DNA of 64,000 nucleotides from a virus (Duplodnaviria > Heunggongvirae > Uroviricota > Caudoviricetes), in IMG/VR virus record IMGVR_UViG_3300009500_000011, positions 104,585 to 168,584 of that record. One strand, written 5' to 3'. Shown here piece after piece: positions 4,237-51,263 of the stretch. A program made the position numbers and the translations under genes. Below the pieces are notes generated by a model, which was not told where the DNA came from, made no database searches, and worked only from the letters and a program-made list of their open reading frames with translations. The number at the start of each line of letters is the position of its first letter. The stretch's first letter is position 1.

Positions 4237-4282
4237 ACAATTACTAAGTACACAACAATATAAATCTAAGGATAAATTTTTA

Positions 4283-11659: not shown

Positions 11660-12935
11660 GAGTAATTCTCAAAAATTCTTAGAAGCAGCAAATTGGGCTC
11701 TTGTAAAAGAACGCTTTGGCGAAGATACAGGAGTTAATATTCGTCGCGCTTCTATAGATAATGTGCAAAATATTACGCTTTTCAATGGTTCAAAAGGTTT
11801 ACTTTTTGATGGATATTCGTTTCCTGAACAAGAACATCTTAAAGGCTTGATTGTTCACGAAGTATTAGGAAGCGCACATTCGGTTATAGCGGCATGTTTT
11901 CCTAAATTCTATAACTATGGCGAACCTGCTGAAAAACAAAAGCATCTTGAATACTTAAATGACGATTCTATGAGTGTGTTATTTGCTAAGAAAGAGGATG
12001 GAGTAAATATTCGTCCTTATTTCAATGCTGCAACAAATAGAGTTGAATTTGCTACGCGCGGAACCTTGCTTGTTGTTTCTGATATTGAAGAAACGTCTAA
12101 TCTTGATTATGGCGCAATGGCTCGTTCAATTGCAGAAGAAAAATATCCAATTCTTTTGGATGAGGAATTTGTAAAGAAATACTCTTGTATTTTTGAAATG
12201 ATTCATCCTGATTCCAAAATTCTTACGGATTATGGACAAAGAAAAGACCTTATTCTTCTGTCAGTATTTGATTTAGAAAATAACTGCTATGAATTTTCGC
12301 GTGAATGGGTAGCATCTTGGGCAAATATAATTGGGTTAAATTATGTTGAATATTGGTTTGACCAATATGCGCCTGTTTCTGAATTTTCTTCTTTAGTTGA
12401 AAAACTACTTAAAAAATGGAACGAAACGGATGTAGAAGGTTCTGTTGTTATATTTGTAAACTCTGAAGCAGAACCTGTATATCGTCTTAAAGTTAAAAAT
12501 GCTTATTATTTACAAATGCTTCGACTTGCAAAATTTTGCACTTTGAAGAATTTAGTCTCAATCATGGAAGAAAATAACTTTTCAAATTGGGAACAACTTC
12601 GTGCATATTTGTACGAAAGCCCTTCAATGAATGAAGAATTAGAAATGGCATATAAGGCTCATTTTGATGTATATGAAAATTGGTTAGCAAATCTTGAAAT
12701 CGAAAAACAAAATGTTTTAAAAGAATATCAAGAATTACCTTCTTTCGAATTACAAAAAGATTTTGCTTTATACATCTTAAAAGATGGCGCTTATCCATAC
12801 AATCCGCTATTCTTTGCTATTCGCAAATGGTTAGCAGAAGCCAAAAATCCTAATTTAGAACAATTCTTTGAAGAAAATGTTAAAGCAACAGTAATGTTGA
12901 AGAAAATCTATCCACTATCGGAAGTAGAGGAATAA
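11631..12935 (+). CDS. RNA ligase (T4 Rnl1-like nucleotidyltransferase)
   Basis: Motif I FAKKEDGVN (KxDG), motif IV-like DVEGSVVIF, motif V-like YRLKVK. Confidence 0.55.
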   Translation: MMTEMNTQLKSNSQKFLEAANWALVKERFGEDTGVNIRRASIDNVQNITLFNGSKGLLFDGYSFPEQEHLKGLIVHEVLGSAHSVIAACFPKFYNYGEPAEKQKHLEYLNDDSMSVLFAKKEDGVNIRPYFNAATNRVEFATRGTLLVVSDIEETSNLDYGAMARSIAEEKYPILLDEEFVKKYSCIFEMIHPDSKILTDYGQRKDLILLSVFDLENNCYEFSREWVASWANIIGLNYVEYWFDQYAPVSEFSSLVEKLLKKWNETDVEGSVVIFVNSEAEPVYRLKVKNAYYLQMLRLAKFCTLKNLVSIMEENNFSNWEQLRAYLYESPSMNEELEMAYKAHFDVYENWLANLEIEKQNVLKEYQELPSFELQKDFALYILKDGAYPYNPLFFAIRKWLAEAKNPNLEQFFEENVKATVMLKKIYPLSEVEE

Positions 12936-12936
12936 C

Positions 12937-13443
12937 ATGGGTTTATTTGATTATGTAATTTGTGATTATCCTTTACCTGATTCATATAAAGGGAGTATTA
13001 AGTTTACAACTAAAGACTTAAATTCTTTTATGAATACTTTTACTATTACTGAATCAGGTCAACTTTTAGAACACAAATTTCATTTTGAAGAAGTTCCTGA
13101 AGAAGAACGTCCTAAATTTAATACACCCGAATGGAATTCTGATAACGAAACAATTAAAACTTGGACACGCTTAATGGGTTCAAAGATTCAAGTATTTGAT
13201 GGCTTGGAACCCTACCTTTACACAGGTGCTGTTTGTTTTTACGGTTCAAATTTAGATAGTTGTAATTCGGATGGATATTATACTACAGAAAATGATGAAC
13301 CTTATGAATACAAAGAATACATTGCTTTGTTTAAAAATGGTATGTTAATTAACATTATTGAAAATAATGAAAAAGACAATGAATTTTTTACTCCAGAATG
13401 TTTTTTAACACAAAAACAGTATAAAGAAAAATATAATGAATGA
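12937..13443 (+). CDS. hypothetical protein
   Basis: Track ORF between the ligase and the Thg1-like gene. Confidence 0.4.
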   Translation: MGLFDYVICDYPLPDSYKGSIKFTTKDLNSFMNTFTITESGQLLEHKFHFEEVPEEERPKFNTPEWNSDNETIKTWTRLMGSKIQVFDGLEPYLYTGAVCFYGSNLDSCNSDGYYTTENDEPYEYKEYIALFKNGMLINIIENNEKDNEFFTPECFLTQKQYKEKYNE

Positions 13444-14197
13444 CTCGCTTGGCGACCGAATGAAAACATATTATGAAGATGTGACGCGGCATTACTTGCC
13501 TCGGCGAACTCATACAATTATTCGGTTAGATGGAAAATCTTTTCATACGTATACAAAAAAATTAGCAAGACCATTTGATGCTGGTTTGATTGAAGATATG
13601 CAAAAAACCACAATTCGACTTTGTGAGAATATTCAGGGCGTTGTTCTTGGTTATACGCAATCTGATGAAATATCTCTTGTTTTATGTGATTATAAAGAAA
13701 AAGAAACTGAATCCTTTTTTAAAGGTAATATTCAAAAAATTTGTTCAGTATCTGCAAGTATGGCTACTGCATTCTTCAATGCTTTTAGACAAGCCCGTAA
13801 TTTTGAAGGTGGTCCAGCATTTTTTGATGCTAGAGTATTTACTATTCCAGAAAAGGTAGAAGTTCTTAATTATCTTATTTGGAGACAAAAAGATGCAACA
13901 AGAAATTCTATTCAAATGGCCGCACAATCTGTTTATTCTCATAAAGAACTTAATAAAAAGAAGTGGTCTGATTTAAATGAAATGCTTTTTCAGAAAGGTA
14001 TTAATTTTAATGATTATTCTTCTTCTGAAAAACGTGGTTCTTTAATTGTGAAAGAATATTTTGAAGGGGAAGCCTATGATAAGCGTAAGCAAGAAAATGT
14101 TATAGTTACTCGGTCGCGTTGGATTGTAGAACCTGAAACACCTCTTTTTACTGCTGAAGAAAATAGAGATTTATTTGAAAGGTATTTATATAAATAA
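13436..14197 (+). CDS. Thg1-like protein (tRNA-His guanylyltransferase / 3'-5' polymerase family)
   Basis: N-terminal GDRMKTYYE...HTIIRLDGKSFHTYTKK and SDEISLV match the Thg1/TLP signature. Confidence 0.6.
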   Translation: MNDSLGDRMKTYYEDVTRHYLPRRTHTIIRLDGKSFHTYTKKLARPFDAGLIEDMQKTTIRLCENIQGVVLGYTQSDEISLVLCDYKEKETESFFKGNIQKICSVSASMATAFFNAFRQARNFEGGPAFFDARVFTIPEKVEVLNYLIWRQKDATRNSIQMAAQSVYSHKELNKKKWSDLNEMLFQKGINFNDYSSSEKRGSLIVKEYFEGEAYDKRKQENVIVTRSRWIVEPETPLFTAEENRDLFERYLYK

Positions 14198-14349: not shown

Positions 14350-15051
14350 ATGTATATGCCAAAAAAACAATCTTCTCAAACACCTAGAAGAATTCCAACC
14401 ATAAGAACGGTACAATTTGAAGCCCAAACAATAAATCAAGAGAAGTTTGTAAAAAATATAGAAAGAAATGTTGTTTCATTCGGAATAGGTATACCAGGTT
14501 CAGGAAAAACGTATTTAGCATTAGCAACTGCTCTTAAAGCATTAGTTGAACAAAAATGTGAACGAGTTGTAATAACTAGACCAATGGTTGAAGCAGGTCC
14601 TTCTATCGGATTCCAACCTGGAAATGAAGAAGAAAAACTTGGAGTATATTTAAAACATATTTATGATATGATATATAAATTACTACCAAAAGTTTTGGCA
14701 GATGATTTGCTTGATTCAGGAAAAATATCAATTGGTGCTATTACATTTATGAGAGGAATGAATTTTGAAAACTCATATGTAATAATAGATGAAGCCGAAA
14801 ACTTAGACAAAAAATCATTTTATTTGTTATTAACAAGAATTTGTGAAGGGTCTAAAATGATTTTTTGTGGTGATACTGGCCAGGTTGATTTAAAAAATCC
14901 TAGTGAAAGCGGATTAAATGATGCAGTTTTAAAATTTCAAGGTAAAGAAAATTTTAGTGTAACTGAATTTACTATTGAAGATTGTCGCAGAAGTAAAGTT
15001 GTTATGGAAGTTATTAAAGCATATTTCCCTAACTCAACCAAGACAAAGTAA
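14350..15051 (+). CDS. phoH: PhoH-like ATPase
   Basis: GIGIPGSGKTYLALA Walker A, VIIDEAENL Walker B, typical PhoH length and GDTGQVDL motif. Confidence 0.75.
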   Translation: MYMPKKQSSQTPRRIPTIRTVQFEAQTINQEKFVKNIERNVVSFGIGIPGSGKTYLALATALKALVEQKCERVVITRPMVEAGPSIGFQPGNEEEKLGVYLKHIYDMIYKLLPKVLADDLLDSGKISIGAITFMRGMNFENSYVIIDEAENLDKKSFYLLLTRICEGSKMIFCGDTGQVDLKNPSESGLNDAVLKFQGKENFSVTEFTIEDCRRSKVVMEVIKAYFPNSTKTK

Positions 15052-17137: not shown

Positions 17138-17224
17138 GGAAGTATCGCATAGCGGCGATTGCATCTGACTGTAAATCAGACGCGCGAAAGCGCCTCGGAG
17201 GTTCGAGTCCTTCTACTTCCACCA
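17138..17224 (+). tRNA. tRNA-Tyr (anticodon GTA), type II
   Basis: Acceptor GGAAGTA/TACTTCC, loop CTGTAAA, long variable arm CGCGCGAAAGCGCCTC, T-arm GGAGG-TTCGAGT-CCTTC, A73-CCA. Confidence 0.75.
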
Positions 17225-17234
17225 TTTTAATAAT

Positions 17235-17308
17235 ATTTTGAGTTGCGCTAGAATAAAGTTACTTCGTCTGTAAAACGAGGAATCCGGGTTCGAGTCCCGG
17301 TCGGAATC
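17235..17308 (+). tRNA. tRNA-like element / possible pseudo-tRNA (anticodon loop CTGTAAA = GTA)
   Basis: Acceptor ATTTTGA/TCGGAAT (with G-U pairs), anticodon stem TTCGT/ACGAG, canonical T-arm CCGGG-TTCGAGT-CCCGG. No convincing D-stem; no CCA. Confidence 0.3.
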
Positions 17309-17399
17309 TAACGATTTCGGTACTTTAATCGGTAAAATCCTAAACACTTTGTTCGCTACCTTCGCTCAAAATATTTTAAAAACTTGTTGCCCATAGTAT

Positions 17400-18943: not shown

Positions 18944-18948
18944 ATCAT

Positions 18949-19020
18949 TGGAGTGGTAGCATAGAGGTAATGTACCGTTTTATCGCGAGCGGGATGAAGG
19001 TTCGAGTCCTTCCCCTCCAG
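18949..19020 (+). tRNA. tRNA-like gene with 8-nt anticodon loop (TTATCGCG) - identity unclear
   Basis: Acceptor TGGAGTG/CCCTCCA (one mismatch), D-arm GCAT-AGAGGTA-ATGT, stem CCGTT/AGCGG enclosing 8 nt, canonical T-arm GAAGG-TTCGAGT-CCTTC. Confidence 0.35.
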
Positions 19021-19040
19021 TTCTTTTTTAAAAAGAAATC

Positions 19041-25587: not shown

Positions 25588-26253
25588 ATGCCTTTAAAAA
25601 TCGTGTGTATTTCTGATACTCACAATTCATTAAATCAACTTGAACTTAATGGATTAAAAATGCCAGAAGCAGATGTTCTTATACATGCTGGTGATTTAAC
25701 ATTTAAAGGCCAACTTCCAGAAATTTCAAAAGCAAATTATCATTTAGGGAAAATTAAACATAAGTATAAACATGTGGTTTTTGTTCCAGGAAATCATGAT
25801 TTTCTTTTTCAAAAAGATGAAGCAATTGCAAGGGCTGTATTGTCTAATGCAACCGTATTAATTGACCAACCTTTAGAAATTGAAGGTTATAAATTTTACG
25901 GTAGTCCTTGGCAACCCTGGTATCAAGATTGGGCATTTAATTTTAAAAAATATTCAGCAGGAGGAAAAGAACAGTCAATTCGTATTTGGGGAGCTATTCC
26001 TGAAGAGACTGATATTTTAATTACTCATGTCCCGCCATATATGATGATGGATAAAACTGAATATGGTGAAAATATTGGTGATGCTTGGCTTGCTAAACGT
26101 TTGAAAGAACTTCCTAATCTTAAACTTCATGTTTTTGGGCATGTTCATGAAAGATACGGTAAAGTAGAAGCAAAAATTACCTTTGTTAATGCAGCTTCTA
26201 TGAACCGTAGATATAGCATTGTGAATCCACCAATTGTTATAGATTTGCCTTAA
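25588..26253 (+). CDS. calcineurin-like metallophosphoesterase
   Basis: CISDTHN, GDLTFKG, GNHD, GHVH motifs. Confidence 0.6.
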   Translation: MPLKIVCISDTHNSLNQLELNGLKMPEADVLIHAGDLTFKGQLPEISKANYHLGKIKHKYKHVVFVPGNHDFLFQKDEAIARAVLSNATVLIDQPLEIEGYKFYGSPWQPWYQDWAFNFKKYSAGGKEQSIRIWGAIPEETDILITHVPPYMMMDKTEYGENIGDAWLAKRLKELPNLKLHVFGHVHERYGKVEAKITFVNAASMNRRYSIVNPPIVIDLP

Positions 26254-41542: not shown

Positions 41543-44500
41543 ATGTCGCTACTCTTGTTGTATAACCGTAAACTTTTTCAGTCTACATTAACTAATTCTA
41601 ATTTAACTTCTGATTCAAATTCAAGAAAAACTTATTTTTCAAGAACTAATGTAGATTCAAGTTTGTTTTCTGATTCTTCTGCTAGAAGTGCAAATTATAA
41701 TAGAGCATCATCAGATATATTCAACTTATCTGATAGTCTTTTGCGTAATACGTTTTATGCACGTAGTTTTCAAGAAATATATTCTTTTTTCGATTCATTA
41801 AATAGACAAGTTGATAACAGTAGAAGTGAATCAGAAATTTTTAGTACGATTGATATTCAAAATTTATCACGATTTTATAATCGTTCATCCACAGATTCTT
41901 TTAATTTTTCTGATAGTAATTCTCGGTTTTTAGATTTTGCTCGTCTTCAATCTGATGTTTTAATTTTTAATGACTTAATTAATCGTTCCACTAATGTAAA
42001 TCGTTCTATAACCGACCAATCTATAGAGATAGATTCTTTAACAAGACAAATTATTGATAATCGCCAAACTTCGGACGTATTCAATACTATTTTATCTTTT
42101 ACAGAACAGCAGTTTTTATCTAGGTCAACTACCGATGGATTAAGTTCTTTTACAGATTCTTCATCGTATAGTCGAGTTTTGCCACGTTCTGTTATGGATA
42201 CTTTTAGTTTTTCGGATTCAAATTCTATTTCTCAATTACTTCTAAGAACATTTAGTGAAAGTTATTCTTTCAATGATGTTCTTAGTAATTCTGGAACTCA
42301 TATCGCTTTTTTAAGTGATGTATTAACAAATTTTGTAGATTCAATAAGCGCCGAACAGTTTGTTTCAAGAACAATGTCTGATAATCTAACGACATTAGAT
42401 TTAGTAACTTCAGTTAAGACTTTTTATAGATTAAATTCAGATAATACTAACTTTGCAGATGCTATCTCTTCTGCTAATATTTTAAATAGATTTAATATTC
42501 AAAATTTAAATTTTAATGATTCACTTAATAATCAAAATATTTTTAATAGAAATAATAGTGATTTAGTTAATAATTTTAATGATTCCACTTTAATATCTCA
42601 ATTTTTAAATCGAACCTCAAATGAGGTGTTTTCAACATCTGATATTTTATCTTTGGCGCAATTTTTGTCTCGTAATCCAACAGATATTCTTACAACGTTA
42701 GATAATAACGGTAGAAATATCTTTATTTCTAAATCAGTAATTGATTCTATTTTAACTTTCGATAGTCTTCAAAGCACGAAGATTGCTAATTTAAATCTTC
42801 AAGAAACATTTAGCTTTAGTGATGTTCTTTTAAGAAATATTATAGATTTCCGTACAAATTCAGACAGTTTTGCGTTTGTTGATTTTGTCAATAATTATAA
42901 TATATTTACAAAATCAATTGTTGAATCTTTCCAAACAAATGATTTGCTAACAAGGGAGTATATCTCAAATCAAAATCTTCAAGAAAACTTTAATTTTTTA
43001 GATATATTATCTGAAAGTCAATTTTTACAAAGACAATGTTCAGAACAATTTAATTTTATTGATGGTATATTGAGAGAAGTAATCATTAATAGGGCCATGA
43101 ACGAAACTCTATTGGAATCAGATGACATTACTACTGCTTTAGTTTTCTTTAGGAATATAAATGAACAATTCTCTACCGCAGCATCTGTAAGTTATGTACA
43201 TTCATTCGTTAGAAATTTGTTAGAAAATTTTGCAACTTCTAATTCCATTAGCAGGGCTCTTATTTCTCCAAGAAATACTTCTGATTTCTTTAATCAAATT
43301 GTCGATACTTTAAATTCATATAAAATTGCCAATTTTAATCTTGATGAAACTTTTGCATTTAATGATTCTTTATCTCAAATGTCTCTGGTTTTTAGGAATT
43401 TTTCAGATTTATTTAGTTTTTTTGATTTTACAACAAGTAATGCAATAATTCCTAGAAATATTGAAGAATCATATCCTATAAGTGATTCATTGTCCAATAA
43501 CAATTTGTTTTCAAGACTTTTCGAAGAAGAATTTAATTTTACTGATGCTGTTAATATAAGTCAGAGTTTGGCGCGTCAATTCTTAGATAGTTTTATTTTT
43601 TTTGATAATGTTTCAACAAATAGTTCAGGCGGTTTGTTTTTAAGAGTAATATCAGATGTTTTAAATACTAATGATTCTAGTGAAATAAATCAATTTTTAA
43701 ATCGTGAAAATACCGATACATCATTAACTAGTGATTCGCTCCAAAACTCCAATATTTTAAATAGACAATTTCAAGACTTATTAAGTATAGCAGATACCTT
43801 AACTTCTACTAATGAATTTAATAGATTTTTTTCTGATTTGTTGCAAACTAATGATGCTGCAAATTCAAATTACGTTTATAATTCAAATTTATCTGATAAT
43901 TTAAACACAAGTGATTCGCTAAATAGATTTTTTCTAAATATTGCAAACTTAGCAGAAACATTTACAACAACAGATTCCAACTCCAGAGAATCTATTTTGG
44001 CGCGAAGTCTATCTGAAACATTTTCTCTATTGGATTTATTAACTAGAGTTTTATCTAAAGTAAGGTTATTAAACGATAATCTTCCCTTTACTTTTGATTC
44101 ACTTGCAACATATAGTACGTTTTTTAGAGAACTGCAAGAAGAGTATATATCATCCGAAGAATTAATTAACGAATCTATTTATAAAAGGCAACTTGAAAAT
44201 ACATTTACAACTTTGGATGAGTTGATGCGTGTTTTACTTATTGCTAGGGAAGTATTTGAAGTCGGAGAAATATCAGATACTGTTGCAAGTAAAGCAGTTA
44301 TTCTAAGATTTGTAGAAGAATTTTTTGAATTAGTAGATAATATTGCCTTAAATCAAAGAATTAATCGTAGTTCTGAGTATCAAAGTAACTTCTCGGATAT
44401 TCTAAATAGAGAAGTTATATTAGAAAGATTTTTGTCTGATTCAAGTCAATTTTTTGACAATTCTTTACTTCAAAAAGTTGGTGCAAGATTTTTCGTTAAT

Positions 44501-44878
44501 TTATTTGATGAATACTCATTTACTGATGAACTTATTGGGACAAGTTTGTTAGAAAGATTTTCTCAGGACATATTACAAACAGCCGATGAAGTTGCTCGTT
44601 TAGTAAATAATAATAGAAGTGTAGAAGAAATTTTTGAATTCTTAGATATTGCTTCGCGTAAACCAGTATTTAAAATTGGTCAAAGAGTTAAATTCAGATA
44701 TAATGGTGCCTTATGTCAAGGTAAAATTATTTTAAGATATTATGCAACAAATCCTAGTGAAGGCATTAGATATCAAGTTAATGTTGATTTTTGTAGTAAT
44801 TGGAAAGCAATTGGAAAAACAACACGAATTGATGTAGATTTAAATGATTTATTATCAATTAATCCTCAGAATTGGTAA
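41543..44878 (+). CDS. large fibrous repeat protein (~21-aa period S/N/D/F repeats) with C-terminal PQNW domain
   Basis: 1111 aa. Dozens of F-[NST]-x-[ST]-D-[ST]-L-x-R/N-type repeats; distinct globular last ~70 aa. Confidence 0.5.
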   Translation: MSLLLLYNRKLFQSTLTNSNLTSDSNSRKTYFSRTNVDSSLFSDSSARSANYNRASSDIFNLSDSLLRNTFYARSFQEIYSFFDSLNRQVDNSRSESEIFSTIDIQNLSRFYNRSSTDSFNFSDSNSRFLDFARLQSDVLIFNDLINRSTNVNRSITDQSIEIDSLTRQIIDNRQTSDVFNTILSFTEQQFLSRSTTDGLSSFTDSSSYSRVLPRSVMDTFSFSDSNSISQLLLRTFSESYSFNDVLSNSGTHIAFLSDVLTNFVDSISAEQFVSRTMSDNLTTLDLVTSVKTFYRLNSDNTNFADAISSANILNRFNIQNLNFNDSLNNQNIFNRNNSDLVNNFNDSTLISQFLNRTSNEVFSTSDILSLAQFLSRNPTDILTTLDNNGRNIFISKSVIDSILTFDSLQSTKIANLNLQETFSFSDVLLRNIIDFRTNSDSFAFVDFVNNYNIFTKSIVESFQTNDLLTREYISNQNLQENFNFLDILSESQFLQRQCSEQFNFIDGILREVIINRAMNETLLESDDITTALVFFRNINEQFSTAASVSYVHSFVRNLLENFATSNSISRALISPRNTSDFFNQIVDTLNSYKIANFNLDETFAFNDSLSQMSLVFRNFSDLFSFFDFTTSNAIIPRNIEESYPISDSLSNNNLFSRLFEEEFNFTDAVNISQSLARQFLDSFIFFDNVSTNSSGGLFLRVISDVLNTNDSSEINQFLNRENTDTSLTSDSLQNSNILNRQFQDLLSIADTLTSTNEFNRFFSDLLQTNDAANSNYVYNSNLSDNLNTSDSLNRFFLNIANLAETFTTTDSNSRESILARSLSETFSLLDLLTRVLSKVRLLNDNLPFTFDSLATYSTFFRELQEEYISSEELINESIYKRQLENTFTTLDELMRVLLIAREVFEVGEISDTVASKAVILRFVEEFFELVDNIALNQRINRSSEYQSNFSDILNREVILERFLSDSSQFFDNSLLQKVGARFFVNLFDEYSFTDELIGTSLLERFSQDILQTADEVARLVNNNRSVEEIFEFLDIASRKPVFKIGQRVKFRYNGALCQGKIILRYYATNPSEGIRYQVNVDFCSNWKAIGKTTRIDVDLNDLLSINPQNW

Positions 44879-44904
44879 CTTTACAGTTTCTTTACATAGC
44901 ATTG

Positions 44905-44933
44905 TTGCAAATATTGGTATGCTTGTCTATAAT
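44905..44933 (+). promoter_or_regulatory. promoter TTGCAA-N17-TATAAT driving the noncoding region upstream of Ro60
   Basis: 5/6 -35, 17-nt spacer, perfect -10. Confidence 0.5.
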
Positions 44934-45036
44934 CTCTAATAGAGTTGAAGCTGAAGGAAACGAAGCAGGTGGTTTAAATGCCATCGGAAGCAAGTGCAAG
45001 TCTTGCCATCTCTGCCATAAAAAACTAAATAAATTT

Positions 45037-45070
45037 GAGTTGCGTTAGAGTACGGTTACTTCTTAATTGA
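45037..45070 (+). repeat. repeat copy R1 (tTGCG-N-TAC-G-TTACTTCTTaatTGA)
   Basis: gagttgcgttagagtacggttacttcttaattgac, shared with R2/R3. Confidence 0.5.
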
Positions 45071-45278
45071 CATATACCTAATGTCCCACCTCAATAAAGG
45101 AGTAAAATCTTTTATTGGGCTAGTCACCTGAGTCGTGGTGAGACGCATTGTGCAAATGTTAGTGGAGGCTCGTAAAATAAGCCTAGAACTAAAAATTCTT
45201 AGACTTAAGATGTAAAAATCAAAAGTCGGTCCCGTACTTGCCCTCTTCTCTCAAATTTATTTTAAAAATTAAAAACTT

Positions 45279-45312
45279 GGGTTGCGACAGATTACAGATA
45301 CTTCTTATATGG
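45279..45312 (+). repeat. repeat copy R2
   Basis: gggttgcgacagattacagatacttcttatatgg. Confidence 0.5.
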
Positions 45313-45367
45313 AATAAAAAAGCTGTATTCGCTACCTTCTCCCGAGTATAAATTTTATAATATTTAA

Positions 45368-45400
45368 ATTGCGTTAATTACAGATACTTCTTGTATATTG
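45368..45400 (+). repeat. repeat copy R3 (followed by tRNA-like T-loop GGTTCGAGTCC)
   Basis: aaattgcgttaattacagatacttcttgtatattgg. Confidence 0.5.
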
Positions 45401-45519
45401 GTTCGAGTCCATTAAGTGTAGTCGGTACACAACTGTAGTTGTTCCATTCGTTTAAATTTTATTTAATCCTTGGGAATATATTTCTCAAGGATTTTTTTGT
45501 TGTCATAAAGGAAAAAAGA

Positions 45520-47205
45520 ATGAAATACAATACTAAAACAGTAAATGCTGGTCCAGGAACAAAAATGATAAATCTTGCAGGCGGAGAAGCTTTTAAAGTT
45601 GATAATCGTACTGCATTATATTTAACTTCTGCAACTTCTTTAGGTGGCGGTCAAGGAAATAAATATTATGTTTCTGCAAATCAAGAATACAAAAATATTC
45701 TTGAACTAATTGAAAAGGTTTCCGCTCAAGACCCAGAATTTATTTTCCAATTGGCTGCATATTGTCGTCAAGATTTATACCTTCGTAGTATTCCAACGGT
45801 ATTATTTATCGAAGGTATTCGTGCAATGCATAAGCAAAAAAAGGCCAATGCACCATATCCAGTAGATGCATCTAAGTATGCAAATGCTATTTTTGGTCGT
45901 GCTGATGAAATTGTTGAAGCAGTTGCATATTGGCTTGGAGTTGAAGGCCATCACAAATTGCCTTCCCCTCTTCGTAAATCTTTGACCATTGCTTTAAATT
46001 CATTTGATGAATACCGCTTGCTTAAATATAATCAAGAAGATAAGCAAGTTACATTTAAAGATATTGTTCGTCTTGTGCATCCAGAACCAAAAACTGATGT
46101 GCAAAGTGCAATTTTCAAATACTTCATCAAGGATGAAATCAGTCCAGAATTAATGCCAAAGGCAACTGCCCGCAAGGCTTTGCTTTCACGTACTCAATTT
46201 GATGAAGAAGCACAACGCTTGATGAGAGATTCATCTGCTACTTGGGAAACTGTAATTGCTAAATTCGGTTCGACTAAAGAAATTTGGGAAGCAGTTATTC
46301 CAAATATGGGATACATGGCTTTATTACGTAATCTTAATAATTTTCTTAAAAAAGAAGTAGATTTAGATTTAGTAATTCCTCGCCTTGTGAATCCGCAAGA
46401 AATTCGTAAAAGCAAGCAATTGCCTTTCCGTTTTTACACAGCAATGAAACAACTTGGTGTAGAAGATAACAATAAGAATTCTACGATGACATATTATGGA
46501 TATTCCGATTCAGTAAAAACAGCATTTGAAAAATGGCGTAATGTAAATTCTAGCGATGGAATTTCTCGTTTACGTAATGCTCTTGGTGTTGCTATGAATA
46601 TTGCAGTAGAAAATGTTCCTCACCTTTCAGGTCGTACCGTTGTTGCGGCAGACCTTTCTGGTTCTATGAGTCAACCTCTTAATAACAAATCAAATGTAAC
46701 TTATCGTGAAATCGCTTGTATTATGGCTGGTATTGCTGGTTCAATAGCACCAGATAATGTAATTTGTGGATTTGGTTGTTCATTTGCTGTTGCTAAAAAA
46801 GGCAAAGATATTCTTGAAACTGCAAATAATATTGATAAATTAAATGTTGGAATGTCAACGGATGCATGGCGTATTCTTGATTACTTGCTTACAAACAAAA
46901 TTTTTGTAGATAGAGTCATGTATTTTACAGATACACAATGTTATAATTCATATGGGGGCGCAAATTTAAACGAACTTTGGAAAAAATACAAAGTTCTTTG
47001 CCAATCAACTGGTAAAAAAGTTCCTGTTCTTTATGAAGTAAATCTTGCAGGTGGTAATACATCTAGTTTTAATTCTGAACAAAGAGTTGCTACCATTGGT
47101 GGATGGTCTGAAAGAATTTTTGATTTAATTACTACTTATGAAACTGACCCTCGTCAAGCAATAAGTAAAATTAAAGAAAAATATTCAGATTTAGTATCTG
47201 TTTAA
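45520..47205 (+). CDS. Ro60/TROVE-domain protein with C-terminal vWA/MIDAS
   Basis: Size, helical N-terminal repeats and C-terminal VVAADLSGSMS MIDAS motif as in Ro60/Rsr orthologues. Start set at ATG 45520 (AAAGGAAAAAAGA upstream). Confidence 0.5.
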   Translation: MKYNTKTVNAGPGTKMINLAGGEAFKVDNRTALYLTSATSLGGGQGNKYYVSANQEYKNILELIEKVSAQDPEFIFQLAAYCRQDLYLRSIPTVLFIEGIRAMHKQKKANAPYPVDASKYANAIFGRADEIVEAVAYWLGVEGHHKLPSPLRKSLTIALNSFDEYRLLKYNQEDKQVTFKDIVRLVHPEPKTDVQSAIFKYFIKDEISPELMPKATARKALLSRTQFDEEAQRLMRDSSATWETVIAKFGSTKEIWEAVIPNMGYMALLRNLNNFLKKEVDLDLVIPRLVNPQEIRKSKQLPFRFYTAMKQLGVEDNNKNSTMTYYGYSDSVKTAFEKWRNVNSSDGISRLRNALGVAMNIAVENVPHLSGRTVVAADLSGSMSQPLNNKSNVTYREIACIMAGIAGSIAPDNVICGFGCSFAVAKKGKDILETANNIDKLNVGMSTDAWRILDYLLTNKIFVDRVMYFTDTQCYNSYGGANLNELWKKYKVLCQSTGKKVPVLYEVNLAGGNTSSFNSEQRVATIGGWSERIFDLITTYETDPRQAISKIKEKYSDLVSV

Positions 47206-47282
47206 TAATGAAGGGGTAGGGGAAATCTTACCCCTTCGTTATATAATTAGACTATATAAACTTTAATAAAAGGAATGATTTT

Positions 47283-47858
47283 ATGATTTCTTGTTGCGAT
47301 GAATGTGTAAATTATGTTGAGTGTGATAAATGTGAAGGATGTTATGAGTGTGATTCTTGTATTTGTTCGCAATCAAACTCTGGAGAAGAAGACTTTGTGG
47401 CAGAACTTCCTGATGCACCATTTGAAACTTATTATGCTCAAGATGGTTTAATTTCTTTTGGCGCATATTTAGACATTATCTTAATGTATAAAAAATTATT
47501 TTCACCTAATTTAGAAAATTCATTAAGTGTAAATGAAATGTCTATTAATTCTATGCGTGAATTTATTTGGGAAAAACTAAAAGAGCTTTCAACAGAAAAT
47601 GATGAATTTAAAGAATCTGTCGTAAATACTCAACAAAATGTTGATAAAATGCGATTAGAGTTTGAAGCAAATAAAAATAAAATGCAAAGCTTAGAGCAAG
47701 AAAACGTTAATCTTGGTAAAAATATGATTGACAAAGATGCTGAACTTGAAAGATTAAGACGAGAAATAGATACTTTAAAGAGTGAACTTAGAGTTGCCCG
47801 TGGAGTCAATTATTTTCAATCACATAATATTAAAACGGAAGACATGAAGCATGAATGA
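47283..47858 (+). CDS. Cys-rich N-terminus + coiled-coil protein
   Basis: CCDECVNYVECDKCEGCYECDSCIC, then a heptad-rich segment. Confidence 0.35.
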   Translation: MISCCDECVNYVECDKCEGCYECDSCICSQSNSGEEDFVAELPDAPFETYYAQDGLISFGAYLDIILMYKKLFSPNLENSLSVNEMSINSMREFIWEKLKELSTENDEFKESVVNTQQNVDKMRLEFEANKNKMQSLEQENVNLGKNMIDKDAELERLRREIDTLKSELRVARGVNYFQSHNIKTEDMKHE

Positions 47859-48468
47859 AAATAAAAAATACACAGGCATAATTTTTGTTGGTCCTCTTGG
47901 TTCAGGGAAAGATTTTATTTTATCTCGTATTCGTAAAGCTTTTGATGAAAGTTTGACAGAATATCATGTCTGGAATGTTGGAGATTATTATTATAAGCAT
48001 TTAGGCAAACAAATTAATAAATCCGTTAAATATATTGTTGATAATAAAGCTCGTTTTAGAAGTCAACTGCAAGCAATAGGAACAACTCCATCTATTGTTG
48101 AACAAGGTGTTGCGTATTCACTCGGGAAATATCAAGACCTTAGTGCTTGGGGTGTCTTACCTGTTTTAACAGGTAGATTAAAAAATGAAGTTATTGCTTT
48201 AAAAGAATTAGGTATTGCAGTTATTTTTGTTAAAACTTCTGTTGAAACAAGAGCAAGACGTATATATCAAAGAGACGGAAAATTTCCTTCTGAATCCCAA
48301 TTAAATCATCCAGTAGAACCTAAATTTGAAGATTTTGAAGAATTGGCAGATGCAGTAATCATAAATGAAGATGAATCTGGAGATTTTTATGTAAAATTTA
48401 ATCCCGATGTTAATGCATTAACATATCTTAATAAATCATGTCAAGGCAAACTTATTTTTGACATTTAA
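47851..48468 (+). CDS. P-loop kinase (polynucleotide/dNMP kinase-like)
   Basis: Walker A IIFVGPLGSGKDF. Confidence 0.45.
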   Translation: MNENKKYTGIIFVGPLGSGKDFILSRIRKAFDESLTEYHVWNVGDYYYKHLGKQINKSVKYIVDNKARFRSQLQAIGTTPSIVEQGVAYSLGKYQDLSAWGVLPVLTGRLKNEVIALKELGIAVIFVKTSVETRARRIYQRDGKFPSESQLNHPVEPKFEDFEELADAVIINEDESGDFYVKFNPDVNALTYLNKSCQGKLIFDI

Positions 48469-48495: not shown

Positions 48496-49146
48496 ATGGA
48501 AACTCAAAAAACCTTCTTTACTAGTGATAATCACTTCAATCATGAGAATATAATTAAATTTTGTTTTCGTGGTTATGGTTCTTATGAAGAAAGAAAAAAT
48601 AACCCAGAACTTCATTTCAAATCAATAGGTGAAATGAATGAAATTATGGTTCAACGTTGGAATGAAGTGGTTGGACCAACCGATACTGTATATGTACTCG
48701 GTGATTTTGCTATGGGTGATAAATATAAGTCTGTTGAATATTTTAATAGGCTAAATGGAACAAAACATCTAGTTCTTGGAAATCATGATTGTAGTAACTT
48801 TGTCAAAAAAGAAGTTCACCCTGCAATCCTTGAAATGGGTTTTGCTTCAATTACTGAAGAACTATACGCAAAAATAGATGGTCGAAATGTATGGATGGCT
48901 CACATTCCATATGGTCATAATAATGATAAACGTAACTATCTTCGTGAAAAAGTTAAGCCAGGTTTTTCTCTTAAAAAAGATGTTATTCTAAGTGGCCATG
49001 TACATGATAAATGGATTATAAATAATCATAATTCCATTAATGTGGGAACAGATGTTTGGGATTTTTACCCTCAAACCTTGTCTCAACTTCTGGAAAAAAC
49101 AAAAGACCTTCCTCGTTTTGATTCTTCAATATTTCTTCCTGTTTAA
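48496..49146 (+). CDS. calcineurin-like metallophosphoesterase
   Basis: TSDNHFNH, LGDFAMGD, GNHD, GHVHD motifs. Confidence 0.6.
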   Translation: METQKTFFTSDNHFNHENIIKFCFRGYGSYEERKNNPELHFKSIGEMNEIMVQRWNEVVGPTDTVYVLGDFAMGDKYKSVEYFNRLNGTKHLVLGNHDCSNFVKKEVHPAILEMGFASITEELYAKIDGRNVWMAHIPYGHNNDKRNYLREKVKPGFSLKKDVILSGHVHDKWIINNHNSINVGTDVWDFYPQTLSQLLEKTKDLPRFDSSIFLPV

Positions 49147-50858: not shown

Positions 50859-51162
50859 GAGTTGTTTGCATAAAATCAAGACAATCTTTACACATTAAAA
50901 TTAATTTTGGATTTTGAAAATTTTCTTCATCAATAATTTCAACAAAATTATTTTTTTCTGTCTTGCAAAGCAAACATAAATGTGGTATTCCATCATTAAC
51001 TGCCAAAAAATATAAAGAATTGGAAAATTTTTCAACAATAATAAATGGCCTCATTTGATGAACAATTTCTCCAATATTTAAAAGATATTTTTCCATTAAA
51101 TCGAATTCTTCATCGGTACTAAACCCAGCAGATGTTCCATCGGGCTTGAATTTGAATAGCAT
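50800..51162 (-). CDS. hypothetical protein (minus strand), Cys-pair containing
   Basis: 120-aa ORF with ordinary composition; convergent with and overlapping 50388..50858 by ~58 nt. Confidence 0.3.
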   Translation of the reverse strand: MLFKFKPDGTSAGFSTDEEFDLMEKYLLNIGEIVHQMRPFIIVEKFSNSLYFLAVNDGIPHLCLLCKTEKNNFVEIIDEENFQNPKLILMCKDCLDFMQTTLTKTSKDIHDEHSIRLLGS

Positions 51163-51174
51163 ATATTGTATAAT
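51146..51174 (+). promoter_or_regulatory. promoter TTGAAT-N17-TATAAT for the atypical tRNA-like gene 51187..51263
   Basis: 17-nt spacer, perfect -10. Confidence 0.4.
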
Positions 51175-51186
51175 CTCCTTATATAT

Positions 51187-51263
51187 GGCCGTATACCAGC
51201 CTAATTTCCTAAATTAGTAACTGTAGATGGACAAGGTAGGTTCGAATCCTATTGCGGCCTCCA
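51187..51263 (+). tRNA. tRNA-like gene with aberrant core (hairpin CTAAT-TTCCTAA-ATTAG = CCT anticodon-like; no canonical D-arm)
   Basis: Perfect acceptor GGCCGTA/TGCGGCC and T-arm GTAGG-TTCGAAT-CCTAT, U73-CCA, 77 nt; the interior does not fold as a cloverleaf by eye. A consensus promoter sits just upstream. Confidence 0.35.

What the first reader, a model, noticed from the sequence alone, without database searches (positions are those of the whole stretch)
44880..47205. Ro60/TROVE-vWA gene preceded by a promoter-driven, repeat-bearing noncoding region: candidate phage Ro60 / Y-RNA module
- 45520..47205 encodes a ~560-aa protein with a C-terminal MIDAS (VVAADLSGSMS); size and layout fit the Ro60/Rsr family.
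- The 560 nt upstream (44880-45440) contains no ORF.
- That region begins with a near-perfect promoter (TTGCAA-N17-TATAAT, 44905-33).
- It carries three ~35-nt degenerate repeats (45037, 45279, 45368; core TTGCG..TAC.G.TACTTCTT..T).
- The last repeat runs into a GGTTCGAGTCC tRNA T-loop motif (45400-10).
- In bacteria, Ro60 orthologues are normally encoded next to their Y RNA, which has a tRNA-like domain.
- A phage-borne Ro60 with its own Y-RNA-like RNA, in a genome full of tRNA and RNA-repair genes, would form a coherent RNA quality-control or anti-defence system.
Basis: partly seen in the sequence, partly recalled or inferred. Interest (0 to 1): 0.8.

Follow-up and report, generated by a model that had tools for sequence, protein, structure and literature searches.

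The report
Phage Ro60 gene with Y-RNA array
A phage gene for a Ro60-type RNA-binding protein is preceded by three small non-coding "Y RNA" genes, with a fourth in the phage's tRNA cluster; this protein-RNA pairing is already known in bacteria and some phages, so this is a divergent new example, not a new kind of system.

Summary

- **Protein.** 45520-47205 encodes a Ro60/TROVE + vWA protein. Pfam TROVE scores 3.5e-32. The best solved relative is the Ro60 of Thermus phage phiLo.
- **Upstream region.** It is a non-coding operon: a sigma70-like promoter, a tRNA-like leader, three units (WA 45027-45262, WB 45275-45347, WC 45362-45457), then an intrinsic terminator.
- **Unit architecture.** Outer stem, conserved internal loop (5' UUGC(G)NYA, 3' GYNN-CUUCU), inner helix, UACUUC, then a variable core.
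- **Fourth unit.** 17232-17375 has the complete YrlA-type V/T/acceptor-like/D tRNA-like core. It lies in the tRNA cluster, and ARAGORN mis-calls it tRNA-Tyr.
- **Conservation.** Nine related metagenomic phage loci with upstream sequence carry arrays of 1-7 such units upstream of TROVE. Covariation over 40 units is strong: 88% paired against 55% when shuffled.
- **Independent models.** Covariance models built without window sequences recover the window units. They also hit unannotated arrays in Arthrobacter phage Atuin and Streptomyces phage BRock.
- **What fails.** The Rfam YrlA threshold and the published CGAA motif are not met.

Phage Ro60 with upstream Y-like RNAs is published (2014, 2025). 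Function is inferred by analogy.

The parts
44905..44933 (+). Sigma70-like promoter of the non-coding operon (TTGCAA-N17-TATAAT). The predicted start is about 44940-44941.
   Evidence: scores it 10/12. It is identical in L001. By eye, equivalent promoters precede the arrays in L004, L005, L006, L007, L133 and L135. On its own it is not above shuffle expectation.
44941..45017 (+). tRNA-like leader element: a cloverleaf with an encoded CCA. Its anticodon loop and T loop are non-canonical, so it is probably not a decoding tRNA.
   Evidence: Rfam tRNA scores 32.0 bits (gathering score 29) in the 4-kb scan. ARAGORN does not call it and it is missing from the whole-window gathering scan. The MFE fold is a cloverleaf in both the window and L001. 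The anticodon loop differs by an indel between the two. The acceptor stem is 6/7 pairs in the window and 7/7 in L001.
45027..45262 (+). Unit WA, a long Y-RNA-like gene of about 236 nt. It has a 13-bp outer stem, 5' loop UUGCGUUA, an 8-bp inner helix, UUACUUC, a ~170-nt multi-hairpin core with no T-loop, and 3' loop GCCCUCUUCU.
   Evidence: Searches give the fold and architecture. The nhmmer 5' half scores E 7.3e-4 and the 3' half E 0.14. R2 gives only a partial hit of 14.3 bits. This is the weakest of the four units statistically.
45275..45347 (+). Unit WB, a short hairpin-type Y-RNA-like gene of 73 nt with no tRNA-like core (YrlB-like).
   Evidence: R1 scores 37.8 bits, E 7.6e-9, in the whole window. 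R2 scores 41.8 bits. Differences from L001 cluster in the terminal loop.
45362..45457 (+). Unit WC, a 96-nt Y-RNA-like gene with a minimal tRNA-like core. It has a short V hairpin, a T arm (GGUUCGAGUCC) and a D arm (GUGUAGUCGGUACAC), but no acceptor-like hairpin.
   Evidence: R2 scores 41.2 bits, E 6.3e-7, end to end. The L001 homologue scores 41.4 bits. The T-loop motif was located.
45465..45503 (+). Intrinsic terminator closing the array: a 12-bp stem, a 5-nt loop and a T-run. It is followed directly by the TROVE ribosome-binding site.
   Evidence: One search finds it as the only terminator-like site in 44500-47600. It is identical in L001. By eye, an equivalent hairpin plus T-run ends every related array.
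45507..45512 (+). Shine-Dalgarno-like AAAGGA, 7 nt before the ATG. There is no room for a separate promoter between the terminator and the ATG.
   Evidence: Read directly from the sequence.
45520..47205 (+). Ro60/TROVE + vWA (MIDAS DLSGS) protein of 561 aa.
   Evidence: Pfam TROVE 3.5e-32. PDB sequence search: phiLo Ro60 8e-34, Rsr 3.7e-6. AF2 model pLDDT 75. Foldseek: 9kop 1.1e-20, 2nvo 8e-15, then Xenopus and human Ro60. MIDAS-type residues D378, S380, S382, T447 and D471 are invariant in 13 homologues.
17232..17375 (+). Unit W17k, a full YrlA-type Y-RNA-like gene of 144 nt in the tRNA cluster, 28 kb upstream. It has the same stem/loop module plus a V hairpin, a T arm, an 8-bp acceptor-like hairpin and a D arm.
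   Evidence: R2 scores 84.4 bits, E 2.5e-16. The nhmmer 5' half scores 9.6e-5. Rfam YrlA gives a partial hit of 15.5 bits on the T-AS-D part. ARAGORN mis-calls 17242-17308 as tRNA-Tyr; Rfam tRNA scores only 24.8 bits against a gathering score of 29.

Best explanation
This is a phage-encoded Ro60 / Y-RNA ribonucleoprotein module.

Shown by the sequence and by comparison with related loci:
- A sigma70-like promoter (44905-44933) precedes about 560 nt of non-coding sequence that ends at an intrinsic terminator (45465-45503).
- That sequence holds a tRNA-like leader and three Y-RNA-like units: WA 236 nt, WB 73 nt and WC 96 nt. AU-rich spacers of 12-14 nt separate the units.
- The Ro60 gene follows immediately, with no promoter of its own.
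- In each unit the 5' and 3' ends pair into an outer stem.
- Next comes a conserved asymmetric internal loop (5' UUGC(G)NYA; 3' G(C/U)NN(N)CUUCU).
- An 8-10 bp helix and a UACUUC motif follow.
- A variable core closes the unit. It is a bare hairpin, a circularly permuted tRNA-like domain (V, T arm, closed acceptor-like stem, D arm), or a long lineage-specific multi-hairpin domain.
- A fourth unit with the complete tRNA-like domain sits in the tRNA cluster at 17232-17375.

Inferred by analogy with D. radiodurans, Salmonella and M. smegmatis Y RNAs and with Thermus phage phiLo:
- The precursor is cut in the spacers into separate RNAs.
- The conserved stem/internal-loop module is the Ro60 docking site.
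- The variable cores act as adaptors that tether or gate Ro60 towards host partners, most likely a 3'-5' exoribonuclease such as PNPase, and tRNA-handling enzymes.
- During infection the RNP would therefore redirect or damp host structured-RNA decay, or police the phage's own large tRNA set, alongside the phage's Rnl1-type ligase and Thg1-like enzyme.
- Because Ro60 lies behind the terminator, the RNAs should be made in excess over the protein.
For: Protein:
- TROVE 3.5e-32.
- phiLo Ro60 8e-34 by sequence.
- All 13 Foldseek matches with E <= 0.001 are Ro60 structures.

RNA architecture:
- 41 curated units from 10 loci share the same layout.
- The 16 stem pairs, counted over 40 of these units, are 88.4% paired against 54.6% in shuffles and 33-47% when slid.
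- There are 217 cells with changes on both sides against 69 in shuffles, and all 16 pairs show compensatory changes.
- RNAalifold on an unguided MAFFT alignment of 12 tRNA-like units recovers the outer stem, inner helix, T arm, 7-bp acceptor-like stem and D arm. 22 of its 26 pairs show compensatory changes.

Detection independent of the window:
- R1 finds WB at E 7.6e-9.
- R2 finds W17k at 2.5e-16, WB at 4.6e-7 and WC at 6.3e-7.
- The nhmmer top four hits in the window are exactly the four units.

Synteny:
- Every related locus with upstream sequence (TROVE 51-94% identical) has 1-7 units upstream on the same strand. By eye each complete array has a terminator behind it.
- R2 hits sit beside the Ro-like genes of cultured phages. 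Atuin scores 73.9 and 56.9 bits. BRock scores 78.5 and 57.1 bits.
- The 73.9-bit Atuin hit overlaps a partial Rfam YrlA match.

Precedent:
- YrlA was found in 254 bacteria and 22 phages. M. smegmatis YrlA and YrlB are processed from one precursor upstream of rsr (PMC4201824).
- phiLo Ro60 binds two upstream Yrl RNAs and host PNPase, and attenuates PNPase (PMC12135203).

Context:
- 32 ARAGORN tRNA calls, at least one of them spurious, and 29 Rfam tRNA hits above gathering.
- An Rnl1-type ligase, a Thg1-like enzyme and PhoH in the window.
Against: - There is no expression, processing or binding evidence of any kind.
- The Rfam YrlA gathering score is not reached: 15.5 bits partial on W17k, nothing on the array, against a gathering score of 69.
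- The published Ro-recognition motif GNCGAAN0-1G / CGAA is absent from all four units.
- WA is supported only weakly by the models, and its long core has no detectable relative in other loci.
- Unit boundaries, and the register of the inner helix, were partly chosen by maximising pairing. This inflates the pairing statistics somewhat.
- The host, and so whether it has PNPase or a Ro60 of its own, is unknown.
- R2 found nothing within 2.5 kb of TROVE genes in five other phage lineages, so the RNA family is not universal among phage Ro60 loci.
Confidence: 0.85

Rival explanations
1. The upstream region is mainly a cis-acting leader of the Ro60 mRNA. On this view the repeated stem/loop modules are autoregulatory binding sites through which Ro60 controls read-through of the terminator at 45465-45503. 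They would not be genes for stand-alone RNAs.
For: In the window and L001, and by eye in L134, L135 and L136, the terminator abuts the TROVE ribosome-binding site with no intervening promoter. Ro60 expression must therefore depend on read-through of the array transcript.
Against: - A fourth unit sits 28 kb away in the tRNA cluster and scores highest of all.
- By eye, five or six relatives (L005, L006, L007, L008, L133, possibly L004) have a separate consensus promoter between the terminator and TROVE.
- In Atuin, units lie downstream of the Ro gene, among tRNAs.
- Experimentally studied homologous systems yield discrete trans-acting RNAs.

Autoregulation could still be an added layer on top of the main function.
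Confidence: 0.08
2. The units are decaying or rearranged tRNA pseudogenes and repeat debris in a phage tRNA island. On this view they are next to TROVE only because both are accessory cargo, and there is no functional partnership.
For: T- and D-arm motifs are tRNA-derived. Phage Ro-like genes often sit in tRNA clusters. ARAGORN and the Rfam tRNA model partly match W17k and the leader.
Against: - The conserved part is the non-tRNA stem/internal-loop module.
- It is kept by compensatory changes across 40 units.
- It is present in short units that have no tRNA-like sequence at all.
- The units keep fixed strand, order, promoter and terminator relative to TROVE across proteins only 49-59% identical, and in actinophages at about 26-29% identity.
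Confidence: 0.04
3. The RNAs are real and structured but work independently of Ro60. They could be tRNA-mimic decoys for host anticodon nucleases or tRNA-modifying enzymes, or scaffolds for another phage protein.
For: - The V hairpin loop of W17k (CUGUAAA) is identical to the anticodon loop of the adjacent phage tRNA-Tyr.
- The related unit L133d carries an Asn-like loop, CUGUUAA.
- The window encodes tRNA-repair enzymes.
Against: - The V loop is not conserved: L004 has CUGAUAAA, and other units have no such hairpin.
- The invariant feature is the terminal stem/internal-loop module. It corresponds in position to the Ro-binding module of the Rfam YrlA consensus (outer stem, AUGCu / aAaAcUuG loops, next stem).
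- Co-occurrence with TROVE is strict in every locus examined.
Confidence: 0.03

Closest known systems
YrlA / YrlB bacterial and phage Y RNAs (Chen et al. 2014, PMC4201824; Rfam RF02553)
   Same: - Encoded upstream of Ro60 on the same strand, several per locus, and apparently co-transcribed.
- 5' and 3' ends pair into a stem interrupted by a conserved internal loop, followed by a second helix.
- A YUAY-type motif (UUAC/AUAC) opens the V region.
- The permuted tRNA-like domain runs V, T arm, closed acceptor-like stem, UA, D arm (W17k; partly WC).
- Short partners without a full tRNA domain exist (WB resembles YrlB).
- The Rfam YrlA consensus has the same topology.
- The R2 model built from this clade scores 74-78 bits on actinophage elements (Atuin and BRock). 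The Atuin element overlaps a partial Rfam YrlA match.
   Different: - The GNCGAAN0-1G / CGAA motif is absent. The outer-stem sequence is free, and the loop starts UUGC rather than A(U/G)GC.
- Rfam YrlA scores are far below gathering.
- Arrays hold up to 7 units in relatives, against the two (YrlA and YrlB) described per species in Salmonella and M. smegmatis.
- A class of 200-280-nt units has lineage-specific non-tRNA cores.
- One unit is dispersed 28 kb away, in the tRNA cluster.
Thermus phage phiLo Ro60 with Yrl1/Yrl2 (Hu et al. 2025, PMC12135203; PDB 9KOP, 9L5Y)
   Same: - It is the closest solved protein: 8e-34 by sequence and Foldseek 1.1e-20.
- It is a phage Ro60 whose Y-like RNAs are encoded in the upstream non-coding region.
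- The RNAs have a stem-bulge-stem design.
- It gives the only experimental mechanism for a phage Ro60: RNA binding, host PNPase recruitment and attenuation of PNPase.
   Different: - Protein identity is only about 23-26%.
- The phiLo RNAs were identified by their CGAA motif and are described as simple hairpins without a tRNA-like domain.
- R2 finds no hit in the phiLo locus.
- The window has three adjacent units plus one dispersed unit and a tRNA-like leader.
D. radiodurans Rsr-Yrn1-PNPase (RYPER) and metazoan Ro60-Y RNA RNPs
   Same: A ring-shaped TROVE + vWA protein. The partner non-coding RNA has paired termini that carry the protein-binding site and a distal module that binds an effector.
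   Different: Metazoan Y RNAs and Yrn1 use a GGUCCGA-type bulged helix. Metazoan Y RNAs lack a tRNA-like domain, and Yrn1 has T and D elements in a different orientation. No PNPase link has been tested here.

Membership tests
Ro60 / TROVE protein family | TROVE (HEAT-repeat ring) domain detected by profile | tested here: met
   Pfam PF05731 scores 3.5e-32, 112.6 bits against a cut-off of 23. The PDB sequence search gives phiLo Ro60 8e-34, Rsr 3.7e-6 and human/Xenopus Ro60 1.8e-4 to 8.3e-4.
Ro60 / TROVE protein family | C-terminal vWA domain with a MIDAS motif (DxSxS ... T ... D) | tested here: met
   PF25045 vWA_Ro60 scores 27.4 bits, marginally under its 27.7 cut-off. DLSGS is present. D378, S380, S382, T447 and D471 are invariant in 13 homologues. 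The model shows an alternating beta/alpha fold over residues 373-527.
Ro60 / TROVE protein family | Overall Ro60 fold over the full length | tested here: met
   AF2 model pLDDT 75, pTM 0.70. The top 13 Foldseek PDB hits are all Ro60 proteins, aligned over 540-577 columns. TM-score normalised to the target is 0.57-0.76. The model is of moderate confidence only.
Ro60 / TROVE protein family | Binds Y RNA or misfolded RNA | not testable with these tools
   Requires EMSA, RIP or a structure.
YrlA-type Y RNA (Rfam RF02553; Chen et al. 2014) | Reaches the Rfam gathering score (69 bits) | tested here: not met
   W17k scores 15.5 bits over model positions 30-81 only. The 44000-48000 region has no YrlA hit at E <= 10. 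The two actinophage loci tested also reach only 31.5-31.7 bits.
YrlA-type Y RNA (Rfam RF02553; Chen et al. 2014) | GNCGAAN0-1G motif near the 5' end | tested here: not met
   The units carry [variable stem]-UUGC(G)NYAG instead. The Atuin homologues do keep ...CCGA|AGCG....
YrlA-type Y RNA (Rfam RF02553; Chen et al. 2014) | Within about 4 kb of Ro60 on the same strand | tested here: met
   WA, WB and WC lie 60-490 nt upstream on the + strand. W17k is on the same strand but 28 kb away, so it does not meet this feature.
YrlA-type Y RNA (Rfam RF02553; Chen et al. 2014) | Paired 5'/3' termini forming a stem, internal loop and stem module | tested here: met
   Covariation across 40 units and the RNAalifold result. 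The topology is the same as the Rfam consensus.
YrlA-type Y RNA (Rfam RF02553; Chen et al. 2014) | Permuted tRNA-like domain in the order V, T arm, acceptor-like stem-loop, D arm, with YUAY opening V | tested here: met
   W17k has all four elements and aligns end to end with R2 at 84.4 bits. WC has T and D arms only. WA and WB have none, so they are YrlB-like or of another class.
YrlA-type Y RNA (Rfam RF02553; Chen et al. 2014) | Homology to accepted phage or bacterial YrlA sequences | tested here: inconclusive
   R2, built from this clade, hits Atuin at 73.9 bits where Rfam YrlA has a partial sub-threshold match. It hits Rabbitrun at 29 bits, overlapping a full-length sub-threshold YrlA match. 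No experimentally validated YrlA sequence was available to compare directly, because the paper's supplements are not held.
YrlA-type Y RNA (Rfam RF02553; Chen et al. 2014) | Expressed and bound by the cognate Ro60 | not testable with these tools
   No transcriptome or binding data.
Canonical tRNA (for the leader element 44941-45017) | tRNA profile score, 7-nt anticodon loop, and a T loop of the canonical U-U-C type | tested here: not met
   - Rfam tRNA scores 32 bits (gathering score 29) only in the small scan. The element is absent from the whole-window gathering scan.
- ARAGORN is negative in both the window and L001.
- With the Rfam 5-bp anticodon stem the loop is 8 nt in the window and 9 nt in L001. 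In the MFE folds (6-bp stem) it is 6 and 7 nt. The two differ by an indel either way.
- The T loops are UGCAAGU and CGUGAGU.

The most novel reading that the evidence does not exclude
In this phage clade the Y-RNA locus has expanded into a toolkit of 4-7 adaptors. All share one Ro60-docking module but carry interchangeable, fast-evolving effector modules: a bare hairpin, a permuted tRNA mimic, or lineage-specific 150-230-nt multi-hairpin cores with no detectable similarity between loci. On this reading a single phage Ro60 is programmed against several different host targets at once, such as exoribonucleases, tRNA-modifying or tRNA-cleaving defence enzymes. The rapid turnover of the cores would then reflect an arms race. 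The V hairpin of W17k copies the anticodon loop of the adjacent tRNA-Tyr and would be one such decoy.
Probability: 0.2. Interest if true: 0.7.

Novelty: new member of a known kind. Interest (0 to 1): 0.42.

Why it matters
- **A broader definition of the family.** Bacterial and phage Y RNAs are poorly catalogued. Rfam YrlA misses this clade and scores below threshold on the two actinophage loci tested. GenBank records of cultured phages leave the arrays unannotated or covered by small hypothetical ORFs. The module defined here (outer stem, UUGC.../...CUUCU internal loop, helix, UACUUC) and the two covariance models give a broader working definition. It does not depend on the CGAA motif.
- **Tractable systems.** The models identify Arthrobacter phage Atuin and Streptomyces phage BRock as cultured phages in which arrays of several Y RNAs could be studied.
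- **A testable prediction.** The diversity of cores attached to one conserved docking module fits the adaptor or tether model of Y RNA function and makes it testable: different cores should recruit different partners.
- **An annotation pitfall.** tRNA finders and gene callers mislabel these elements. Examples are the false tRNA-Tyr call at 17242-17308 and ORF calls laid over arrays in related contigs.

Tried and rejected
1. **Nucleotide searches found no relatives.** A blastn search of the region against 50,697 phage records gave no match. A protein-pattern search of IMG/VR with the single protein gave nothing. With an alignment it gave one viral locus and two metagenome loci. Most relatives came from exact-protein look-ups instead.

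2. **Motif scan of viral contigs was uninformative.** At 14 specified bases the pattern is too weak.

3. **First structural guess abandoned.** I first proposed that GCGA in the 5' loop pairs with UCGC in the 3' loop. Other clades have UUGCC or UUGCA with the 3' CGC unchanged. The helix instead starts at the G of YAG, pairing with the C before the 3' loop.

4. **MAFFT misaligned the short units.** Whole short units (A3) and constructs that included the loops (A4) were misaligned at the 3' end. I used motif-anchored, loop-free constructs for pair counting (A5) and fixed-length constructs for R1 (A6).

5. **R1 misses long units in the window.** R1 is built from core-deleted constructs. It finds only WB in the window, even with filters off or on 1-kb slices. 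It did find units up to 146 nt in other loci. R2 and nhmmer half-models were needed for W17k, WC and WA.

6. **Rfam gave little.** It returned nothing beyond the tRNA family and sub-threshold YrlA matches.

7. **The long cores have no relatives.** BLAST of the WA core against all other cores found no similarity.

8. **Five other phage lineages were negative.** R2 found nothing around the TROVE genes of megaphage LR745206, crAss-like cr111_1, HGTV-1, Mx1 and Vibrio phiKT1024.

9. **Supplements unavailable.** The supplementary alignments of Chen et al. 2014 are not held, so no direct model-to-model comparison was possible.

Full report
**1. Observation**

The region was read directly and all six frames were listed. 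The ORF from the ATG at 45520 to 47205 (561 aa) contains GRTVVAADLSGSMS. Its ATG coincides with the called gene start in the 94%-identical homologue in L001. No ORF of 60 aa or more lies in 44880-45440.

The promoter TTGCAA-N17-TATAAT is at 44905-44933. A single intrinsic terminator (12-bp stem plus T-run) is at 45465-45503. The three repeats are confirmed by the repeat finder, and GGTTCGAGTCC is at 45400-45410. One correction: the MIDAS motif opens the vWA domain at about residue 374 and is not at the C-terminus.

**2. The protein**

- Pfam gives TROVE at 3.5e-32. vWA_Ro60 scores 27.4 bits, marginally under its 27.7 cut-off.
- The best solved relative by sequence is the Ro60 of Thermus phage phiLo (9KOP/9L5Y, 8e-34). 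D. radiodurans Rsr and vertebrate Ro60 follow.
- An AlphaFold model built from 13 homologues has pLDDT 75. By Foldseek it matches only Ro60 proteins at the top: 9kop 1.1e-20, 2nvo 8e-15, then Xenopus and human Ro60, each aligned over about 540-577 columns.
- Ro-like proteins occur in 202 GenBank phage records, all below 30% identity to this one.

**3. Anatomy of the non-coding region**

The nearest relative (L001/L002) differs at 50 of about 644 upstream positions. The changes are spread over the elements. The promoter has none, and the terminator/RBS segment has one.

The decisive comparison is with more distant loci. Ten distinct contigs encoding TROVE proteins 51-94% identical were fetched, and nine of them include upstream sequence. 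Each of the nine has, directly upstream of TROVE on the same strand, a run of 1-7 units of one family. By eye, a sigma70-like promoter precedes the arrays in L004, L005, L006, L007, L133 and L135, and each complete array ends in a hairpin plus T-run.

Forty-one units were curated. They share this layout, 5' to 3':
- outer stem, mostly 5-14 bp, of free sequence;
- 5' loop UUGC(G)NYA;
- a helix of 8-10 bp that begins with a G-C pair and often has a mismatch at positions 3-5;
- (A/U)UACUUC;
- a core of 9-232 nt;
- the 3' strand of the helix;
- 3' loop G(C/U)NN(N)CUUCU;
- the 3' strand of the outer stem.

In the window the units are WA 45027-45262, WB 45275-45347 and WC 45362-45457. A fourth unit, W17k at 17232-17375, turned up in a motif scan of the whole window.

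**4. Is the structure real?**

I took seven outer-stem and nine inner-helix pairs, anchored on the conserved loop motifs, from 40 units.
- 88.4% of cells form standard pairs, against 54.6% in shuffles and 33-47% when the partner is slid by 1-3 columns.
- 217 cells have changes on both sides, against 69 in shuffles.
- All 16 pairs show compensatory changes.

One caveat applies. Some boundaries and the helix register were chosen with pairing in mind, so these numbers are somewhat optimistic.

Independently, RNAalifold on an unguided MAFFT alignment of 12 tRNA-like units from other loci recovers the outer stem, inner helix, T arm, a 7-bp acceptor-like stem and the D arm. 22 of its 26 pairs show compensatory changes.

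**5. Is it more than chance in this window?**

All models were built without any window sequence.
- R1 (stem module only) finds WB at 37.8 bits, E 7.6e-9.
- R2 (full tRNA-like units) finds W17k at 84.4 bits (E 2.5e-16), WB at 41.8 bits and WC at 41.2 bits, each end to end. It gives only a partial 14.3-bit hit on WA.
- A 5'-half HMM ranks WB, W17k, WA and WC as the top four hits in 64 kb, at 3.8e-5, 9.6e-5, 7.3e-4 and 0.51. Everything else is at E >= 4.

WA is thus the least secure unit. It rests on the motifs, on its 13-bp outer and 8-bp inner helices, and on its position in the array.

**6. Cores**

The cores fall into four groups.
- Short units of 58-75 nt have only an A-rich hairpin loop (WB).
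- Units of 130-152 nt have a V region, a T arm (GGUUCGAAUCC type), a closed 7-bp acceptor-like hairpin, UA, a D arm (GCUCAGUGGUAGAGC type) and an AAAAU tail. This is a tRNA opened at the anticodon stem, the arrangement Chen et al. described for YrlA. W17k is of this kind. In some relatives (L6e, L6f, L133b) the acceptor-like loop even contains ACCA.
- WC is a cut-down version with T and D arms only.
- Long units of 199-280 nt (WA and others) have multi-hairpin cores with no detectable similarity between loci.

**7. The leader**

44941-45017 folds as a cloverleaf with an encoded CCA. It scores 32 bits on the Rfam tRNA model in a 4-kb scan. ARAGORN rejects it. Its T loop is non-canonical, and its anticodon loop differs by an indel between the window and L001. 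No equivalent is present in the other loci examined. I treat it as a tRNA-like structural or processing element of unknown role, not as a decoding tRNA.

**8. Comparison with what is known**

Rfam contains YrlA (RF02553, gathering score 69). It gives 31.5 bits (full length) just upstream of the Ro-like gene of Gordonia phage Rabbitrun and 31.7 bits (partial) in Arthrobacter phage Atuin. It gives only 15.5 bits (T-AS-D part) on W17k and nothing on the array.

The YrlA consensus printed has the same topology as the units here: outer stem, 5' loop AUGCu, next helix, CUA..., T arm, acceptor-like stem, UA, D arm, 3' loop aAaAcUuG, outer stem.

By eye, the Rabbitrun element reads GAUGCGUAGAGACGUUGGUUACUUCC...GACGAGG + T arm, nearly the same string as WA's 5' half.

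R2 hits lie beside the Ro-like genes of cultured phages.
- Atuin: strong hits of 73.9 and 56.9 bits, plus four weaker ones. All lie in unannotated gaps among tRNAs flanking the gene.
- Streptomyces phage BRock: 78.5, 57.1 and 26.4 bits, in the unannotated gap upstream of the gene.

The family is therefore the phage/actinobacterial YrlA lineage in a divergent form. The published CGAA signature is lost here. It spans the end of the outer stem and the first loop base, and is still visible in Atuin as CCGA|AG. In this clade the outer stem is free and the loop begins UU.

Two papers set the precedent.
- Chen et al. 2014 reported YrlA in 254 bacteria and 22 phages. They showed that M. smegmatis YrlA and YrlB are processed from one precursor upstream of rsr, and that YrlA is cut by RNase P and gains CCA.
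- Hu et al. 2025 showed that phiLo Ro60 binds two upstream Yrl RNAs, recruits host PNPase and attenuates it.

**9. Mechanism**

Shown:
- the gene order and the transcription signals;
- the conserved module and its covariation;
- the tRNA-like cores;
- the Ro60 fold;
- synteny across lineages.

Inferred:
- co-transcription and processing at the AU-rich spacers;
- Ro60 docking on the stem/internal-loop module;
- the cores acting as adaptors for host factors such as PNPase or tRNA enzymes;
- RNA made in excess over protein, because Ro60 lies behind the terminator.

The window also encodes an Rnl1-type RNA ligase (11631-12935), a Thg1-like enzyme (13436-14197), PhoH and two metallophosphoesterases. 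It has at least 29 tRNA genes. A role in tRNA or structured-RNA surveillance, or in countering host RNA-targeting defences, would fit this context but is untested.

**10. Rivals**

- A purely cis-regulatory leader is disfavoured by three things: the dispersed W17k copy, the separate TROVE promoters seen by eye in several relatives, and units lying downstream of the Ro gene in Atuin. Autoregulation as an added layer is not excluded.
- tRNA debris is disfavoured because the conserved, covarying part is the non-tRNA module, and it is present in units with no tRNA-like sequence.

**11. Verdict**

It is a new, divergent member of a known kind of system. The added value is threefold: a motif-independent definition of the RNA module, a fourth copy in the tRNA cluster, and evidence that such arrays (up to seven units, three size classes) are common and unannotated in phages, including cultured ones.

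Noticed in passing
window 17242-17308 (inside unit W17k, 17232-17375): ARAGORN labels this 'tRNA-Tyr (gta), 67 nt'. It is the 5' half of the Y-RNA-like unit. The 7-nt V-hairpin loop CUGUAAA is identical to the anticodon loop of the true tRNA-Tyr immediately upstream (17138-17224). The related unit L133d has an Asn-like loop CUGUUAA, and L004 has CUGAUAAA. From my own knowledge, both UGU-containing loops would fit the U33-G34-U35 element recognised by tRNA-guanine transglycosylase.
   Followed up: partly
window 51150-51262 (+): A promoter-like TTGAAT-N17-TATAAT is followed by a tRNA-like element. It has GGTTCGAATCC, a 7-bp acceptor (GGCCGUA/UGCGGCC) plus U plus CCA, and an anticodon-like hairpin CUAAU-UUCCUAA-AUUAG (CCU). 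There is no obvious D arm. Neither ARAGORN nor the Rfam gathering scan calls it.
   Followed up: no
window 44941-45017: A tRNA-like leader with an encoded CCA sits at the predicted transcription start of the Y-RNA operon. It is present only in the window and L001, not in the other arrays. Its role is unknown; it could be a processing handle, a stabiliser or a decoy.
   Followed up: partly
L137 (Arthrobacter phage Atuin OK040794.2) 1940-2009, 4242-4314, 4395-4536, 4546-4686, 4694-4814; L143 (Streptomyces phage BRock KX925554.1) 1836-1980, 1991-2085, 2190-2323: Cultured actinophages carry unannotated arrays of the same RNA family in the 'empty' gaps between tRNA genes next to their Ro-like genes.
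   Followed up: partly
L004 3079-3591 (-); L008 603-875 and 914-1114 (+); L138 1915-2272 (Rabbitrun gp93/gp94): Called or annotated small ORFs lie on top of Y-RNA-like units: L4b in L004, and the R2 hits at L008 716-1129 and L138 1973-2306. They are probably spurious gene calls.
   Followed up: no
L006 2558-2698 and 2714-2852; L133 1235-1373: In these tRNA-like units the loop of the 7-bp acceptor-like hairpin contains ACCA directly after the 3' strand. The unit therefore looks like a circularly permuted tRNA with an encoded CCA end. This recalls the RNase P cleavage and CCA tailing of M. smegmatis YrlA.
   Followed up: no
window 45494-45520, compared with L005, L006, L007, L008 and L133: In the window, L001, L134, L135 and L136 the array terminator abuts the TROVE ribosome-binding site. 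In five other relatives a consensus TTGACA-N17-TATAAT promoter is inserted between them. These are two different ways of expressing Ro60 relative to its RNAs.
   Followed up: partly
window 11631-12935, 13436-14197, 14350-15051, 25588-26253, 48496-49146: An Rnl1-type RNA ligase (PF09511), a Thg1-like tRNA-His guanylyltransferase family protein, PhoH and two calcineurin-like phosphoesterases. Together they form an RNA or tRNA repair gene set around the tRNA clusters.
   Followed up: partly
window 41543-44878 (+): The 1111-aa ORF immediately upstream of the operon is made almost entirely of a degenerate repeat of about 20 aa (...F/L-x-D-S-x-x-R/N...). The precomputed Pfam list shows no family for its homologue in L001. 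Its last ~60 residues are non-repetitive.
   Followed up: no
window 18948-19021: ARAGORN reports a 'tRNA-???' with a 4-base anticodon (atcg). Rfam tRNA scores it at only 35 bits. It could be a frameshift-suppressor-like or degenerate tRNA.
   Followed up: no
L001 9078-9695: An IS605 OrfB/TnpB-like gene lies about 3.4 kb downstream of TROVE in the nearest relative. I did not check whether the window has it at the same place.
   Followed up: no
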